Positions 6,129 to 42,104 of a stretch of 64,000 nt of DNA are shown here, one piece after another. The stretch comes from Methanothermococcus sp. Ax23 (GTDB lineage: Archaea > AGJL01 > Methanococci > Methanococcales > Methanococcaceae): the NCBI RefSeq assembly GCF_049075655.1, contig NZ_CP157522.1:1568001-1632000 (forward strand), written 5' to 3'. Position 1 is the stretch's first letter, and every line of letters begins with the position of its first letter. The position numbers were made by a program, and so were the translations under genes. Below the pieces are notes generated by a model. The model saw nothing but the letters and a program-made list of their open reading frames with translations, searched no databases and was not told the origin of the DNA.

Positions 6129-6386
6129 ATAATCGCCTCCTATATTTATATTTCATATACTTTTAATTATAATTTATTTTATGGATAAATGTTATAATAA
6201 CATATAATTTATTTTATTAAAATTTTTCATCGTAAATTATAAATATTATAAAAACTCTCTTAATTCAAAACTTGTTTAACATATCATGAGCTCACATCTC
6301 ATGACAATGAGACATACTACAATAGCCTTTTTTAAGGTTGATTTAAATTATATCTTATAGTATATAAGATTATTTTTGATGATAAT

Positions 6387-10144: not shown

Positions 10145-10262
10145 TAAACCAACTGCTTTATAAGTCTCATTGTTGGTTTCGTTGCCGTCCCCAACTCGAC
10201 TTATGGGGTGAGACCCGCACCCTCCTACCCGCTACTGGATTCACGGTTCGCTTGTGTTAGCA
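10145..10262 (-). other. GC-rich structured segment, possibly a transposon-end/omega-RNA remnant, at the livF breakpoint
   Basis: Hairpins AAACCAAC..GTTGGTTT and CCCCA..TGGGG in a GC-rich island within AT-rich DNA; it occupies the place of the 5' part of livF. Strand and origin are inferred. Confidence 0.35.
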
Positions 10263-10263
10263 A

Positions 10264-10313
10264 GCGACCTAAAACCTTCGGTTTTAAGTTTTCCTCGCTA
10301 CTCGACGAAAATG
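10264..10313. repeat. Short-hairpin module array (shared with 19563-19612)
   Basis: GCGACCTAAAACCTTCGGTTTTAAGTTTTCCTC is identical to 19563-19595. Confidence 0.8.
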
Positions 10314-10558
10314 AACCTACGGCACAACTCTCCCCTAAACTTGCAGATGTAATATTTGATAAAATAGTAGAATTACGGGATGATTATGATATCACCCCCC
10401 TATTAGTTGAACAGAACGCAAAAAAGGCACTTGAAATAAGCGATAATGGATATATGTTTGTTAGTGGCAGAGTGGCATACGGAGGTTCTGCAAAATCACT
10501 TCTTGAACATGAAAAATTCCAGAGTTATTTCTTGGGAATTGTTAATGAAGATGTATAA
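10311..10558 (+). pseudogene. livF: 3' remnant of a branched-chain amino acid ABC transporter ATPase (LivF-like)
   Basis: EPTAQLSPK...[25 protein letters not shown] matches the LivF C-terminal half; Walker A and the ABC signature are missing and the ORF's N-terminus reads through repeat DNA. Confidence 0.8.
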
Positions 10559-18993: not shown

Positions 18994-19500
18994 AAGGACA
19001 CCTCTGCTTGTGAATATGGCACCCCACAAATCCACATAATTATATTATTTTTCCTGTATATATATTTTTTGATTCTATTCAGTTTTTATAACCGGACCAA
19101 TCCTTTCGACACCTTCCTTCCAATAACAAATAGATTTGGAATGTCAAATTGACCGTAAATCTCCCAAAAATACCTATAAAAGAATTTCCTTTGATTTAAC
19201 GCCGAATTATCTGTAATTCAGGATATTTATCTCTATTTTTATCCACTGTGTAATTCAGATACTTGCTCATTGATATAATATTACCAACCAATATCTTTTC
19301 AAGTTTCTCTTTTTTCCAATATTATCTAAATATAAATCCATTTCAACTGTGATTATGGAGCTCATCACATTTATATTTGTTTAAAAAATATCATCTTAAC
19401 TGTGGAATTTGGGATTTTTTAATTTGTTAAAATAGCAATTGTTTAGGTTTAAAAACTCTCCCTTTTCAATTTCACGATTCCTTTGGCAGGAAGCCAACGA

Positions 19501-19640
19501 TTAAACAAAATCACAAAGTGATTTTGTAGCTCTCCGCTTCGCTCCGACTCCGCAACGAAGTTGCGACCTAAAACCTTCGGTTTTAAGTTTTCCTCACTTT
19601 CGTTCGGAAATGCTATAAAAATCCGAAGGATTTTATTCAA
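19501..19640. repeat. Array of about six short hairpins inserted in the left-end hairpin of the IS605-type cassette
   Basis: ACAAAATCAC-AAA-GTGATTTTGT, CGCAAC-GAA-GTTGCG, TAAAACC-TTC-GGTTTTA, AAAATCC-GAA-GGATTTT; absent from the 31093-31373 copy. Confidence 0.85.
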
Positions 19641-19818
19641 TTAGCCGTTGGAGGAATGCCGAAAAATTTATATGTTGTATAAACTATAAATTGTAATAAG
19701 CCCTAAGGCACGAAGCTCGGTAGAGTGGATACGGTTGGAAGGGCTTTATTGGTAAATAATACAGGGCTGTCCGTCAGCCAGCCTAATGTCCTCCGCCCTT
19801 ATTATTGAGGGAGTTGGA

Positions 19819-19912
19819 TTAAATAAAATCCCTACGGGATTTTATAGCATCAAAATCTTTGATTTTGAAGTTAAAATTGCGGAGCAATTTTATACTCTCC
19901 GCTTCGCTACAA
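19819..19912. repeat. 94-bp hairpin array inserted in the IS605-type cassette
   Basis: The other copy reads GAGTTGGA/AGGGCAAG with no insert; modules ATAAAATCCC-TAC-GGGATTTTAT, TCAAAATC-TTT-GATTTTGA, TAAAATTGC-GGA-GCAATTTTA and CTCCGCTTCGCT. Confidence 0.85.
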
Positions 19913-19992
19913 AGGGCAAGCCAACGACTTTAGTCGTTGGTAGCTGACCATAGCTATTTAACAATTCCTCGGTCTTTGAAATGAGAGCTCCG

Positions 19993-20303
19993 CCGTTTAA
20001 AACTGTTTAGTTTTTTGTGAGTATTTGTGAGTGTATGGGAGCATTTAGTTTTCGAAATGTTTATATAGTGTTTTCATGCATAGTTTATAGTGTCAATCTA
20101 ATCAACCCCAAGACTTTCCTAAACCTCTTTTAAACATGTTAAAACATCCAACAAATTGTCGAATTGATGGGTGGAGCCGGGGTCCCCACGACAGGGGAGG
20201 AGACCGATGACATGCTCCCAATGAACCCAGAGGGATATGAGGTTGATGACGCCCAAGTCCAATGTGAGCATTTACTCACCAACGCTTACATTGGACAGAC
20301 CCC
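19993..20303 (+). mobile_element. Non-autonomous IS607-like cassette, copy A (309 bp plus dinucleotide core)
   Basis: Six substitutions versus the inverted copy 30584-30894; CC at both ends (GG on the other strand); subterminal TTTGTGAGT repeats; CGAAATG-TTTATATA promoter-like site at 20053-20067; GC-rich structured 3' half. Confidence 0.85.
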
Positions 20304-28355: not shown

Positions 28356-30440
28356 ATGTTTTCCATTAAATTTAAAACAACAGATGAACTGCCGGAGCCT
28401 TCGCCACGATTAATAGACCAAATAATAGGTCAGGACGAGGCTCTTAATATTGTATTAAGTGCAGTTAATAATAAAAGACATGCACTGCTCTTGGGAGACC
28501 CAGGAGTTGGTAAATCCATGATGGTTAAAGCAGTAGGGGACCTCATAGAAAAATCCAGCTCCGACTTTAAACCATATACAATACTAGCAAAACCAAATTT
28601 AAAAAACTCTGAAAAACCCATTGTAGAATTAATTGAGGGCCCTTATGAAGAAAAGGTTGAAGTTACAAAACCAAGTGTAGTTAAACAGCCACCGAACATA
28701 TTAACTATGATATTATTTATGATTGTATTCACTGCAATTACATCATATTTAATGAGGGGACTTCCAGAATCAAAGGTCCTTGGTGTAATAGCAACCGTCT
28801 CAATTGTAGCATTTGCCTTAGCATTTGTGGTTATTTTTTTAACGATATTTGGAGCCACAAAAGGTTCCATGTCAAATACAGTTAGCCCTATGGACTTAAA
28901 ACCTGTTGTGCTTTATGAATGCAAAAAACGACCTCTTGTGAGGGCAAGTGCCTATAATGTAACTAAACTATTAGGAGATGTTAAACACTGCCCTCTTGGA
29001 GGTAAGCCACCACTTGGAACTCCACCCCATAAGAGGATAATTCTTGGGGCAATACATGAGGCACATAAAGGAATTCTCTATGTAGATGAGATAAAAACCA
29101 TGCCACCAGAAGTTCAGGATTATATATTGACCGCATTACAGGACAAGCACCTTGCAATAAGTGGTAGAAATCCAAATTCAAGTGGGGCAACTGTTGAAAC
29201 AAATCCAATACCTTGTGATTTCACATTGATAATGTCGGGGAACATGGATGATGTTAATAACCTAAGAGCTCCGCTACTTGATAGGGTTGATTACAAAATT
29301 GTTCTTAAAAATAAAATGGAAAACACTCAGGAAAACAGGGACAAATTATTACAGTTTATAGTTCAGGAGATAAGAAATAACAATTTAAATCCAATGACTT
29401 ATGAAGCATGCTGTGAAATAGTTAAAATAGCCCAGTTGCTTGCAGGTTCAAAGGATAAATTAACTTTAAGGCTGAGAAGATTGTCAAATATTATAAAGAT
29501 GGCAAATGACATTGCAATGGGTAGAAATATAAAGGATATAATTAATGAGATGTCAGAAGCTGGGGTCGAAGAAATAGAAAACGAAGCTAAGGGACGTGAA
29601 GAGACAGCAGAAGATGATAAAAAACTAAAAAGCATCATGGGAGTGCTAAATAAAATAACAGAAAAAGATAAGGTGGAAAAAGAAGGAATGGAAAAAGGAA
29701 ATCCTACAATTAAAAAAGTTCAGAAGCACTCAGAAAAAGAAAAAATCTATATAGATATTGAACATGTTGCCGCTGTTGTAAATACAGGTATATACAGCAT
29801 GACCAAACAAGTGGCTATCGACTACCTGAGGAACTTTAAAAGATATAAAAACATCGTTCCAAATGATACTCCAAAGGTTGGTGTTGTGCATGGTCTCGCT
29901 GTGCTTGGTTCCGATGGTATCGGAGATGTAACAAAAATAATCACTCAAATAATTGATTCAAAGAACCCGAATACTCATTTACTAAACATTAGTGGTGACC
30001 TTGCAAAGCACAGCATTACTTTGGCATCTGCATTATCTAAAAAATATGTATCTGAGGGTAAATTACCTTTAAAATCAGAGGAAGATATTGATTTAAATTC
30101 AAAAGAAATATATATACAATTTAGTCAATCCTACTCAAAAATTGATGGAGATAGTGCAACTGCGGCGGTTTGCCTAAGTATAATTTCATCACTCCTGAAA
30201 ATTCCATTGAAACAGGATTTTGCAATAACAGGAAGCCTCGATTTAAACGGTAATATACTTGCCATAGGCGGAGTAAATGAAAAGATAAATGCCGCAAAAG
30301 AATATGGATTTAAAAGAGTAATCGTCCCAGAATCGAATATGATTGATGTAATAGATACGGAAGGAATTCAGATAATTCCTGCTAAAACCTTGGAAGAAAT
30401 AATTCCTCTAGTATTTGAAAGCAATCCCTTAAAAAATTAA
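28356..30440 (+). CDS. lonB: Membrane-anchored ATP-dependent protease LonB
   Basis: Walker A GDPGVGKS, two TM segments, GILYVDE, catalytic DGDSA and GGVNEKI. Confidence 0.95.
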   Translation: MFSIKFKTTDELPEPSPRLIDQIIGQDEALNIVLSAVNNKRHALLLGDPGVGKSMMVKAVGDLIEKSSSDFKPYTILAKPNLKNSEKPIVELIEGPYEEKVEVTKPSVVKQPPNILTMILFMIVFTAITSYLMRGLPESKVLGVIATVSIVAFALAFVVIFLTIFGATKGSMSNTVSPMDLKPVVLYECKKRPLVRASAYNVTKLLGDVKHCPLGGKPPLGTPPHKRIILGAIHEAHKGILYVDEIKTMPPEVQDYILTALQDKHLAISGRNPNSSGATVETNPIPCDFTLIMSGNMDDVNNLRAPLLDRVDYKIVLKNKMENTQENRDKLLQFIVQEIRNNNLNPMTYEACCEIVKIAQLLAGSKDKLTLRLRRLSNIIKMANDIAMGRNIKDIINEMSEAGVEEIENEAKGREETAEDDKKLKSIMGVLNKITEKDKVEKEGMEKGNPTIKKVQKHSEKEKIYIDIEHVAAVVNTGIYSMTKQVAIDYLRNFKRYKNIVPNDTPKVGVVHGLAVLGSDGIGDVTKIITQIIDSKNPNTHLLNISGDLAKHSITLASALSKKYVSEGKLPLKSEEDIDLNSKEIYIQFSQSYSKIDGDSATAAVCLSIISSLLKIPLKQDFAITGSLDLNGNILAIGGVNEKINAAKEYGFKRVIVPESNMIDVIDTEGIQIIPAKTLEEIIPLVFESNPLKN

Positions 30441-30583
30441 TTAATATTTTTATATTTTATTTTTTTTACAACTTCACCATACGGTAATTTCCTTCCGTTT
30501 AGGAACCTATATATAGGAAAAATAATGTAATTAATAAAATATTTTTAAAAAATTTTATTGGTGAATAAAATGGATGAAGTTTT

Positions 30584-30894
30584 GGGGTCTGTCCAATGTG
30601 AGCGTTGGTGAGTAAATGCCCACATTGGACTTGGGCGTCATCAACCTTATATCCCTCTGGGTTCATTGGGAGCATGTCATCGGTCTCCTCCCCTGTCGTG
30701 GGGACCCCAGCTCCACCCATCAATTCGACAATTTGTTGGATGTTTTAACATGTTTAAAAGAGGTTTAGGAAAGTCTTGGAGTTGATTAGATTGACACTAT
30801 AAACTATGCATGAAAATACTATATAAACATTTCGAAAACTAAATGCTCCCATACACTCACAAATACTCACAAAAAACTAAACAGTTTTAAACGG
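30584..30894 (-). mobile_element. Non-autonomous IS607-like cassette, copy B
   Basis: About 98% identical inverted copy of 19993-20303; GG at both junctions; excision leaving one GG restores the host frame TTG GCA AAT GTG. Confidence 0.88.
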
Positions 30895-31092
30895 CAAATG
30901 TGTATATTACAAAAGAGAATGGAGAAAAAGAGAAATTTGATTTTGAAATTGTAAAGGAATCCCTAAGAAACGCTGGAGCGGATGAATCCCTCGTAGATGA
31001 TGTAATAAAAAGAATTGAAAATAGAATTCATGATGAGCTCACCACAGCAGAATTAAAGATGATGATTATAATGGTATTAAGAAGAATAAATA

Positions 31093-31373
31093 GTCAGCTA
31101 CCAACGGATAAATCCGTTGGCTTGCCCTTCCAACTCCCTCAATAATAAGGGCGGAGGACATTAGGCTGGCTGACAGGTCAGCCCTGCATTATTTTAATAA
31201 TAAACCCTTTCTAACCGTACCCACTCTATTGAGTTTCGTGCCTTAGGGTATGATTAATACTATTACATCTATATTATATAAATTTTTTTGGCATTCCTCC
31301 CATCTCGTAAGAGATTTTACAAAACATTGTTTTGTATAACGATTGAAATCGTGGGCTTCCTGCCTAATAATTC
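31093..31373 (-). mobile_element. Non-autonomous IS200/IS605-derived cassette, family 1 copy B
   Basis: On the minus strand TCAC (31377-31374) precedes the left end and the right end is CCAACGGA-TTTA-TCCGTTGG-TAGCTGAC; excision without duplication restores AAT AGT GAA GTA. Confidence 0.88.
31302..31338. repeat. 37-bp double-hairpin insert in the left-end hairpin
   Basis: ATCTC-GTAA-GAGAT plus TACAAAAC-ATT-GTTTTGTA; near-identical to 38009-38045. Confidence 0.85.
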
Positions 31374-31419
31374 GTGAAGTAGCTCAGCAATATACTACAA
31401 ACCATTCATAAATCTTATT

Positions 31420-32223
31420 TTATTTTTTATGGGTCAATTTATAAATTAAATTACTTAATTCCACTATTTTTTTAATATTTAATTTAAAAACCCTCTCGTT
31501 TAAATCAAATTCTGATAAGTTATTCAATATATCTTTCAGCTCATCACGATTTAAACCAATTTCATGAGATGAGTTGATAAGTGCTTTTTTAGCAGTTTTG
31601 TTTTTATGTTGGAATAGAGCTCTCACTACCTTCTCAAAAAATTCTTCATCTTCTAAATGGAAAAGTTCATTAGGCTCTTTTTTGGTAATTCTTACAATTG
31701 CAGAATCTACTTTTGGTTTTGGTGAAAATGCAGATGGTGGAACTTTACATATAAATTCTACATTTGCGTTATATTGCACAGATACGCTTAATCTTCCATA
31801 TTCTTTTGTTCCTTCCTTTGCCACCATTCTTTTAGCAAATTCATATTGATACATCAAAACTGCAACCTCAAAATCAGTTTTTAGAAATTTAAATGTAATC
31901 GGGGATGATATTTGGTAAGGTAGATTTGCTACTATTTTGTTAAAATTTAATTCATTTAGATTAACTTTTAAAGCATCATTCCAAATTACATCAACATTTG
32001 GATGCTCGGCAATTACCTCTTCTGCAAAAGGCTCCAATCGCTTATCTAATTCGATAACATATACCTTTTTTGCATTTTTTGCCAATTCTTTTGTTAATAT
32101 CCCTTTACCAAGACCGATTTCTAAGACTATATCGTTTTTATTTACATTGGCAGCATCTACTGCTTTTTTTACAATATTTTTATCTTTTAAAAAACACTGT
32201 CCTAATTTCTTATTTTGTTTCAT
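31420..32223 (-). CDS. rsmA: 16S rRNA adenine dimethyltransferase (KsgA/RsmA)
   Basis: [41 protein letters not shown]; likely start ATG 32223. Confidence 0.95.
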
Positions 32224-32339
32224 AATCCCACATCTAGGTTCCAAAACGAGCGATAGCGAGTTTTGGACTTTGGATAGCAACCTTTTTTAAAGGTTGCTTA
32301 TAAAAACACTGTCCTAATTTCTTATTTTGTTTCATAATC
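32190..32339. repeat. 38-bp direct duplication of the rsmA start flanking a hairpin insert
   Basis: AAAAACACTGTCCTAATTTCTTATTTTGTTTCATAATC at 32190-32227 and 32302-32339; spacer holds TCCAAAAC..GTTTTGGA and AGCAACCTTT..AAAGGTTGCT hairpins. Confidence 0.88.
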
Positions 32340-41903: not shown

Positions 41904-42104
41904 TTTACGAAATAAAAAAGCGCGTGAAAATATGCCTAAAATCAAAGATTTTATATATTCACTATCTAAAATTCCCTATGGGAATTTTACGAAATAAAAA
42001 ACTCGAAGAGTTTTTAATTTAAAAAAAGAAAAACCGTGAAAATATACCTAAAATCAAAGATTTTATATATTTTCACTATAAAAAAAGAAAATCGTGAAAA
42101 TATG
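41904..42104. repeat. Triplicated rpe start region interleaved with hairpin modules
   Basis: CGTGAAAATAT at 41923, 42035 and 42093; the first two are followed by CCTAAAATCAAAGATTTTATATATT; also AAATTCCC-TAT-GGGAATTT and AAAAACTC-GAA-GAGTTTTT. Confidence 0.85.

What the first reader, a model, noticed from the sequence alone, without database searches (positions are those of the whole stretch)
19501..19912. Mix-and-match arrays of tiny hairpins that insert as discrete blocks
Seen: two inserts (19501-19640 and 19819-19912) are absent from the homologous cassette at 31093-31373. Both begin TTAAA(C/T)AAAATC, end in CAA, and consist of 6-10-bp stems with mostly 3-nt loops (GAA/TTC, AAA/TTT, TAC, GGA) separated by 3-5-nt linkers. 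Modules recur in other combinations: CTCCGCTTCGCT in both inserts, GCGACCTAAAACCTTCGGTTTTAAGTTTTCCTC again at 10265, AAAATC-AAA-GATTTT at 41938 and 42050, and related stems at 32240-32298, 41968-42015 and (degenerate) about 6326-6341. The 94-bp insert has no target duplication beyond one ambiguous A. Inference: a REP/BIME-like or new class of archaeal repeat assembled from interchangeable hairpin units, possibly by an HUH (TnpA/RAYT-like) nuclease or a template-switching polymerase encoded elsewhere.
Basis: partly seen in the sequence, partly recalled or inferred. Interest (0 to 1): 0.75.

Follow-up and report, generated by a model that had tools for sequence, protein, structure and literature searches.

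The report
Stacked two-hairpin mobile DNA inserts
The hairpin arrays are real, but they are stacks of a roughly 50-base, two-hairpin mobile DNA unit of heat-loving methanogens that lands next to or inside earlier copies; similar selfish repeats are known, and the enzyme that moves this one was not found.

Summary
Both inserts are real and are spanned by contigs from independent studies. They sit in a gene-less IS200/IS605 (TnpB) derivative (19476-19948). The mobile entity is not a single hairpin but a 43-57-nt unit: tag (TTGA/TTAA/TTAG/TCAG), head hairpin, 3-nt linker, tail hairpin. It inserts precisely, mostly after A, with no target duplication. Insert 1 is two units back to back (47 + 91 nt); insert 2 is one unit with an inner two-hairpin module. 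Slot order is fixed; slot contents vary (34 of 48 head-tail combinations; loops flip in 8 of 22 stems). TTGA/TTAA units prefer targets resembling their own 5' junction and form head-to-tail arrays (20 of 88 versus 2 of 47), mostly of unlike units (10 of 12). The family occurs in 21 of 41 related genomes. Units fail the IS605 guide rule that the host cassette passes; read on the other strand, the ends look Helitron-like. No Y1, GIY-YIG or RT gene was found in this genome. The scan reported this family before at other loci of this genome. Closest known: MJRE (untestable here), REP/REPIN, mitochondrial double-hairpin elements. Verdict: new variant of a known kind; array grammar is the new part.

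The parts
19476..19948 (+). Host cassette: gene-less IS200/IS605 (TnpB-type) derivative, PATE-like, that carries both inserts
   Evidence: Seven gene-less copies aligned plus a full copy with a 360-aa TnpB at G000:C1:372k; guide/cleavage pairs GAAG/TCAC and CAAG/TGAC fit at both ends; orthologous locus L015 in G013 lacks the cassette
19472..19475 (+). Target tetranucleotide TCAC of the host cassette
   Evidence: Present before all aligned copies; pairs with the left guide
19501..19547 (+). Unit A, 47 nt: TTAA tag, head hairpin (10-bp stem, AAA loop), AGC linker, CTCCGCTTCGCT-type tail
   Evidence: Absent from sister cassette G000:C1:1457k; joint 19499-19548 in contigs of three runs (these may come from the sister copy); the base before it is A here and G in the sister
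19550..19640 (-). Unit B, 91 nt, four hairpins: TTGA tag, head, AGC, inner module (tail-like stem plus tagless head-like hairpin), CGCAAC tail; inserted in the loop of the host's left-end hairpin
   Evidence: Near-identical copy at G000:C1:1457k; empty left ends at 165k, 591k, 1266k; same inner module with other heads and tails in G000, G010, G013, G017
19819..19912 (+). Insert 2, 94 nt: TTAA tag and head (19819-19848), inner two-hairpin module (19849-19894), tail (19895-19912)
   Evidence: Six empty sister sites; the 1457k sister holds a 45-nt two-hairpin unit with the same tail type at the same base; one contig spans it unchanged
31093..31373 (-). Second host cassette, empty at site 2
   Evidence: Alignment
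31303..31339 (-). 37-nt two-hairpin insert with a TTAT tag in the left-end hairpin of the second cassette
   Evidence: Also in copies at G000:C1 77k and 372k; the empty form of this variant is inferred, not seen
10248..10311 (-). Headless remnant of a four-hairpin unit (inner module plus tail) in another repeated cassette
   Evidence: 33-mer identical to 19563-19595; complete 150-nt relative at G000:C1:232k with an empty site at 363k
41938..42015 (.). Old, degenerate hairpin cluster upstream of the ribulose-phosphate epimerase gene; its first hairpin is repeated at 42050
   Evidence: the orthologous site in L051 carries a 49-nt unit inside the third hairpin's arm, so the window is the empty allele
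32240..32298 (.). Two-hairpin element of a second family, flanked by a 38-bp direct duplication of the start of the rRNA dimethylase gene

Best explanation
A family of gene-less, 43-57-nt mobile DNA units of Methanococcales: 4-nt tag, head hairpin, 3-nt linker, tail hairpin. SHOWN: units are gained or lost precisely, mostly 3' of an A, with no target duplication; arrays are units set head to tail, back to back or inside one another, plus four-hairpin forms with an inner module; slot order is fixed and slot contents vary. SHOWN statistically: TTGA/TTAA units prefer sites like RA|TWnnA, which their own 5' junction matches, and they are the class that piles up in tandem. INFERRED: the unit moves as folded single-stranded DNA by cut-and-join strand transfer, most likely by an HUH-type nuclease supplied in trans that need not be in the genome today; self-targeting builds the arrays; hairpin-templated copying errors (loop inversion, paired stem changes) and exchange at the shared linker reshuffle the modules. 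No host function is needed, though one tail type ends in GGTGA and restores a ribosome-binding-like site.
For: Filled/empty pairs inside G000 (30 rows, about 12 distinct sites, the rest passengers in transposon copies) and between genomes (15 rows of 140 elements tested, 4 of them misaligned). Unit length 43-57 nt in 81 parsed events. Base before the tag is A in 90 of 110 events chosen without that base. Unit's last base often differs from the flank (0 shared bases in 24 of 81), so no duplication. Target of TTGA/TTAA units after removing tandem and carrier sites: T at +1 in 21 of 28 and A at +5 in 21 of 28, p about 2e-5 each; none in TTAG/TCAG units, 11 and 10 of 29. Directly behind another tail: 20 of 88 versus 2 of 47, p = 0.006. 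Adjacent units have different heads in 10 of 12 pairs, against simple slippage. Both loop orientations in 8 of 22 stems seen twice or more. Inner hairpins have loops mostly opposite to heads (15:6 versus 25:89). Nine G013 copies of another repeat carry unlike units at the same base. C-GAA-G is the commonest closing motif (116 stems), a very stable DNA mini-hairpin (recalled). G000 has many near-identical IS605 derivatives but no Y1 transposase, so a missing enzyme is uninformative.
Against: No enzyme identified: no Y1, GIY-YIG or RT in G000; Y2, Helitron_like_N and Rep_1 gave nothing in 5 genomes, but their controls were silent too; no unit-flanked nuclease gene among the 13 loci inspected. 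The target consensus comes from cutting units out in silico; among about 10 TTGA/TTAA sites with an observed empty allele only 2-3 have T at +1 and about 5 have A at +5 (my count). Tail-end patterns were written after seeing the data, and events in related genomes are not fully independent. One tandem pair is an exact duplicate (L171). No circular or excised form was seen; the only raw-read run had no coverage.
Confidence: 0.6

Rival explanations
1. No dedicated enzyme: host replication or repair polymerases switch template at hairpins, and double-strand-break or gap repair captures folded DNA or RNA copies of the units.
For: Loop flips and paired stem changes; inner hairpin reads as an inverted head, as fold-back synthesis would give; no enzyme found; an RNA route was suggested for mitochondrial double-hairpin elements because they lack flanking duplications (PMC2800124, passage).
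Against: Precise ends and a conserved unpaired tag in 143 events; strong A preference; RT in only 1 of 41 genomes; none in the seven genomes of genus g3.
Confidence: 0.17
2. The units are minimal PATEs moved by the ordinary IS200/IS605 TnpA.
For: Two hairpins, no duplication; many events lie in IS605 derivatives; TnpB in 15 of 19 unit-bearing versus 3 of 20 unit-free Methanococcales relatives, Y1 in 6 of 19 versus 0 of 20 (kin are not independent, G004's single non-palindromic hit counted as unit-free).
Against: The guide rule (recalled) fits both ends of the host cassette but only 0-10 of 143 units in four registers; head hairpin abuts the end; G013 has 83 pattern hits but 2 TnpB matches and no Y1; units also sit in unrelated genes.
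Confidence: 0.1
3. One reading: single hairpins are independent modules assembled freely into arrays.
For: 34 of 48 head-tail combinations; some long arrays contain runs of single head-like hairpins with a TCG tag (G000:C1:560k, L132, L169).
Against: Every filled/empty pair adds at least two hairpins; fixed slot order; head-tail linkage p = 0.012.
Confidence: 0.07
4. An integron-like tyrosine recombinase joins folded single-stranded circles at a short core, giving cassette-like tandem arrays.
For: Tag plus first stem bases resemble the integron core consensus (recalled); heterogeneous head-to-tail arrays.
Against: The tag has no complementary box in the unit; PF00589 is richest in unit-free genus g3 (7 of 7) and not found in five unit-bearing genomes.
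Confidence: 0.06

Closest known systems
MJRE1-3, palindromic repetitive elements of Methanocaldococcus jannaschii (Suyama, Lathe, Bork 2005, PMID 16182294)
   Same: Same order of archaea; palindromic, dispersed, some inserted in frame in genes (as cited in PMC2229807 and PMC2996958, passages); units here also lie in genes.
   Different: Paper not held, so sequences could not be compared. Recalled: about 141 copies averaging about 100 bp. The head pattern gave at most 12 hits in any genome of genus g5, so this family could be at most a minority of such a set.
REP / REPIN / BIME with RAYT (TnpA-REP) (PMC3116915, PMC6006769, PMC3733652; passages)
   Same: Tetranucleotide at the 5' foot of a short hairpin; mosaic clusters; clusters formed by insertion into or next to existing copies.
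   Different: Tags are TTGA/TTAA/TTAG/TCAG, not GTAG/GTGG; stems are AT-rich; the unit is head plus unlike tail, not an inverted doublet; PMC6006769 found only IS200-type Y1 (subclass 1.1) in archaea, and no Y1 gene flanked by units was found here.
PATEs / IS200-IS605 ends (PMC10055086, passages)
   Same: Gene-less, two hairpins, no target duplication; the host cassette itself is one.
   Different: Units fail the guide-to-cleavage-site pairing that the host passes and are unrelated in sequence to the host's end hairpins.
Non-autonomous Helitrons (PMC4778049, passages)
   Same: On the GAA-loop strand most units begin TC and end CTAA, CTGA, TCAA or TTAA after a hairpin, and insert 5' of T with no duplication; A|T in 31 of 67 non-tandem sites.
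   Different: Only the TTAG/TCAG classes end in CTRR, and those show no A|T preference (12 of 35); the hairpin abuts the end; size is 50 nt; no RepHel found (control silent); eukaryotic family.
Mitochondrial double-hairpin elements (DHE) of Allomyces and Schizosaccharomyces (PMC2800124, PMC10085805; passages)
   Same: Two adjacent hairpins, putatively mobile, no flanking duplication, identical copies across species, enzyme unknown.
   Different: GC-rich and organellar; no sequence comparison made; an analogy of anatomy only.
SRM/NTS repeats with Ssn GIY-YIG nucleases (PMC11893778, abstract and outline)
   Same: Abundant repeats recognised as single-stranded DNA.
   Different: No GIY-YIG in G000; only 1 weak hit among unit-bearing relatives, strong hits only in unit-free genus g3.

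Membership tests
MJRE1-3 | Sequence similarity to the MJRE1, 2 or 3 consensus | not testable with these tools
   Paper not held; no consensus available
MJRE1-3 | Palindromic dispersed repeat in Methanocaldococcus, some copies inside genes | tested here: met
   Named hit in Methanocaldococcus sp. 28A (L055); 13 of 17 genomes of genus g5; insertions in genes
REP/REPIN-RAYT | GTAG/GTGG tag and GC-rich stem | tested here: not met
   Tags TTGA, TTAG, TTAA, TCAG; stems start A(C/T)(A/G)AAA
REP/REPIN-RAYT | RAYT gene flanked by the repeats | tested here: not met
   No Y1 in G000; intact Y1 genes in three relatives are IS605 TnpA beside TnpB
REP/REPIN-RAYT | Mobile unit is an inverted doublet | tested here: not met
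   Minimal unit is head plus unlike tail; only four-hairpin forms hold an inverted head-like hairpin
PATE (IS200/IS605) | Guide tetranucleotides pair with target and end motifs | tested here: not met
   0-10 of 143 units versus both host ends; pairing rule recalled, validated on the host
PATE (IS200/IS605) | No target duplication, two subterminal hairpins | tested here: met
Helitron | 5'-TC and 3'-CTRR ends with a 3' hairpin | tested here: inconclusive
   CTAA/CTGA in 47 events, TCAA/TTAA in 88; hairpin abuts the end
Helitron | Insertion at A|T without duplication | tested here: inconclusive
   31 of 67 non-tandem sites; 19 of 32 in TTGA/TTAA, 12 of 35 in TTAG/TCAG
Helitron | RepHel transposase partner | tested here: inconclusive
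   PF14214 none in 5 genomes, control silent
Classical MITE | Terminal inverted repeats and target-site duplication | tested here: not met
   Ends are not inverted repeats; no duplication at filled/empty sites
Ssn/SRM | Small GIY-YIG gene flanked by the repeat | tested here: not met
IS200/IS605 non-autonomous derivative (host cassette only) | Ends shared with a TnpB element and guide pairing at both ends | tested here: met

The most novel reading that the evidence does not exclude
The units are the smallest substrates of an undescribed archaeal single-strand DNA transposition system with Helitron-like polarity (5'-TC, hairpin, CTAA/TCAA-3', joined 5' of T) and no IS605 guide pairing. Its enzyme targets its own junction and so writes heterogeneous, cassette-like arrays, while fold-back synthesis builds head-tail-head-tail chains and swaps modules in a fixed slot.
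Probability: 0.2. Interest if true: 0.8.

Novelty: new variant of a known kind. Interest (0 to 1): 0.45.

Why it matters
How very small hairpin repeats (MJRE, CGTC-type REPs, mitochondrial double-hairpin elements) move without a known partner is an open question. This family offers a defined 47-nt substrate, precise junctions, class-specific target preferences and identical copies across genera, so the question becomes testable: pull down or screen for the enzyme with oligonucleotides. A nuclease that inserts about 50 nt scarlessly after one base would also be a compact DNA-writing tool. If no enzyme exists, the arrays are a clear record of hairpin-templated mutation in hyperthermophiles.

Tried and rejected
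Rfam: only a tRNA at gathering level in the window; nothing meaningful at 30400-31600, so no known structured RNA. Viruses: 23 pattern hits in IMG/VR, none a family hairpin (loops of 10 nt or more, or broken stems). Wider taxa: 24 stretches in the GTDB scan, 6 true units, five in records named as Methanococcales and one in a 'Bacteroidales' bin whose two genes start like G000's own (L063; probably misbinned, dropped from counts); that scan returned a sample only. Enzymes: GIY-YIG, Y1 (18, 31), RT (49; single hit L187 in G013), tyrosine recombinase (64), Y2, Helitron_like_N, Rep_1 (70-72, controls silent), HUH motif scan of 1739 ORFs (13 hits, none followed up), plasmid and integrated-element proteins (helicases, integrases, a weak RepB-primase hit; no HUH family). 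The whole proteome was not scanned. One-base target duplication: rejected. Specific aiming at IS605 ends: inconclusive; 21 of 43 G000 events have a multi-copy flank versus 30% of non-coding positions, and 14 of 43 lie in mechanical ORFs of 100 aa or more. Hairpin targeting: 18 of 81 rebuilt empty sites touch a hairpin versus 4.4% background, but many are the tandem or nested cases. Literature: ten searches found no description of this family; the library lacks most subscription papers, including the MJRE paper.

Full report
Setting. The window is G000:C1:1568001-1632000 of a 1.67-Mb, 32% GC genome. True family hits in named records are Methanothermococcus, Methanocaldococcus and Methanocaldococcaceae, so the lineage is Methanococcales.

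The observation. Both inserts are there as described, fold far better than shuffles (z -5.7 to -6.1) and belong to a genome-wide excess of 3-nt-loop hairpins (594 versus 305 stems of 7 bp or more; GAA/TTC 148 versus 45.7) that cluster (49 clusters versus 2-6). Contigs from three studies cross the left junction of insert 1 and one spans insert 2 unchanged; the fourth run, raw reads, had no coverage. Four details need correction: the 31093-31373 cassette has its own 37-nt insert at site 1; the common CAA end is coincidental; insert 1 is two events; and 32240-32298 is another family with a 38-bp duplication.

The host. The cassette 19476-19948 is a gene-less IS200/IS605 derivative. A full copy with TnpB lies at G000:C1:372k, the orthologous locus of G013 lacks the cassette, and the guide-to-cleavage pairing rule (recalled) fits both ends. 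It supplies convenient empty alleles but is not the subject.

The unit. A scan for tagged hairpins gave 92 heads in G000 with a fixed plan: tag TTAG, TTGA, TTAA or TCAG; a stem starting A(C/T)(A/G)AAA; a linker TGC, AGC, TAC or AAC; then a tail hairpin. Filled/empty comparison inside G000 (30 rows, about 12 distinct sites) and against relatives (15 rows from 140 elements, 4 misaligned) shows precise gain of 45-53 nt, or of 91-94 and 150 nt for composite forms, without duplication. After collapsing passengers, 187 matches gave 143 events, 43 in G000 and 100 in relatives (L063 dropped). Of 81 parsed simple units all were 43-57 nt, and 24 shared no terminal base with the flank. The base before the tag is A in 90 of 110 events selected without it. 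The pattern occurs in 21 of 41 genomes, with 0-1 hits for the reversed control, and in none of seven genomes of genus g3. Identical units sit in different flanks in different genera, which suggests recent spread or transfer.

How arrays form. Insert 1 is a 91-nt unit on the minus strand in the loop of the host's left hairpin, also present alone at 1457k, plus a 47-nt unit on the plus strand. Insert 2 is tag-head, a 46-nt inner module and a tail; the 1457k sister has a 45-nt unit with the same tail type but a different head at the same base. A relative of insert 2 at G000:C1:550k has a further unit nested inside its inner module. Head-to-tail arrays of up to four units occur (G000:C1:195.8k), and 10 of 12 adjacent pairs have different heads, so most are not slippage products. 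TTGA/TTAA units lie directly behind another tail in 20 of 88 events, TTAG/TCAG units in 2 of 47 (p = 0.006). This matches their targets: with tandem and carrier sites removed, TTGA/TTAA sites have T at +1 and A at +5 in 21 of 28 each, as their own junction does, while TTAG/TCAG sites do not. Caveat: these targets are rebuilt in silico; among about ten sites with an observed empty allele the preference is weaker (T at +1 in 2-3, A at +5 in about 5; my count), and tail patterns were written after seeing the data.

Mix and match. Within the fixed order, 34 of 48 head-tail class combinations occur among 109 events, with weak linkage (p = 0.012). Eight of 22 stems seen at least twice show both loop orientations. 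The tagless inner hairpin of four-hairpin forms has loops mostly opposite to heads (15:6 versus 25:89; the 23 rows include a few that are ordinary neighbours) and can pair with the head in one long fold, as fold-back copying would give. Nine G013 copies of a second repeat family hold unlike units at the same base. Whether this is repeated insertion at a hot spot or replacement in place is unresolved; the same question holds for insert 2 and its sister.

Mechanism. Precise ends, an unpaired tag at a hairpin foot, DNA-type triloops and no duplication point to single-strand cut-and-join chemistry (inference from HUH families: PMC6006769, PMC10055086, PMC4778049, passages). The ordinary IS605 route is unlikely: the guide rule fits 0-10 of 143 units, although TnpB and units co-occur (15 of 19 versus 3 of 20). 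On the GAA-loop strand the ends look Helitron-like, but CTRR ends and A|T targets fall in different classes. No candidate gene was found. That says little, since G000 also lacks the Y1 enzyme that its many near-identical IS605 derivatives needed. I put HUH-type mobilisation in trans with self-targeting at 0.6 overall, host template switching at 0.17, IS605 TnpA at 0.10, free single modules at 0.07 and a tyrosine recombinase at 0.06.

Known relatives. MJRE1-3 is the nearest published family by lineage, seen only as citations (paper not held); membership is untested. REP/REPIN clusters also grow by insertion into or beside existing copies (PMC3116915, passages), but tag, stem and RAYT partner are not met. 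PATE membership fails on guide pairing. Mitochondrial double-hairpin elements are the closest in anatomy (PMC2800124, PMC10085805, passages). PMC3733652 (passages) has no mention of methanogens; PMC11893778 was seen as abstract and outline. Ten literature searches found no description of this family. No supplements were read.

Earlier scan notes. Eight notes on other windows of this genome were shown; seven describe the same two-hairpin family with no enzyme, and one the long-duplication family. They are AI notes and not support; my reading of the unit was reached before opening them.

Verdict. Real; a new variant of small selfish palindromic repeats; interest 0.45. The bold reading, an undescribed archaeal single-strand transposition system, has probability about 0.2 and would merit 0.8.

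Noticed in passing
window 19992-20303 and 30580-30895: A 314-bp gene-less repeat with sharp ends, about ten copies in G000 at 88-98% identity; it shares 74-88% identical pieces with the end region of the IS607-type element at G000:C1:46.7-48.7k, so probably an IS607-derived miniature element carrying a guide-RNA scaffold. No Rfam hit.
   Followed up: partly
window 32190-32339: Second two-hairpin family with a 38-bp direct duplication of the rRNA dimethylase gene start; in G013 related repeats act as carriers of the units studied here.
   Followed up: partly
G000:C1:420843; L010, L123, L125, L130, L132, L135, L155: Units whose tail ends in GGTGA sit at GGTGA sites just upstream of start codons and stack there in tandem, so a ribosome-binding-like site is kept.
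   Followed up: partly
L082:1500-1990 (G017): Two identical 47-nt units at two positions 437 nt apart in one transposase gene, present in two genomic copies.
   Followed up: no
G000:C1:560139-560330; L132, L169: Runs of single head-like hairpins with a TCG tag and GAGT linker nested in a tail loop; also a class with a CTTG tag and AAGT linker, several inside genes.
   Followed up: no
L063 (record titled Bacteroidales): Perfect unit beside genes that start like G000's CTP synthase and GMP synthase subunit; probably a misbinned methanogen contig.
   Followed up: partly
L187:1042-3624 (G013): Only RT-domain hit among 41 genomes, in an open frame of 1116 aa; possibly a defence-type reverse transcriptase.
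   Followed up: no
L212:4393-19774 (G000:C1:282-298k): Integrated element with two tyrosine recombinases, a 1186-aa helicase with a weak primase hit and a HerA/VirB4-like ATPase.
   Followed up: no
window 10208-10558: Spurious-looking ORF made of a transposon-end fragment, the headless hairpin remnant and what looks like the 3' end of an ABC ATPase gene; no Pfam hit.
   Followed up: no
L188-L191 (genus g3): UvrC-sized GIY-YIG genes were found only in genus g3, the genus with no hairpin units; may be coincidence of lineage.
   Followed up: no
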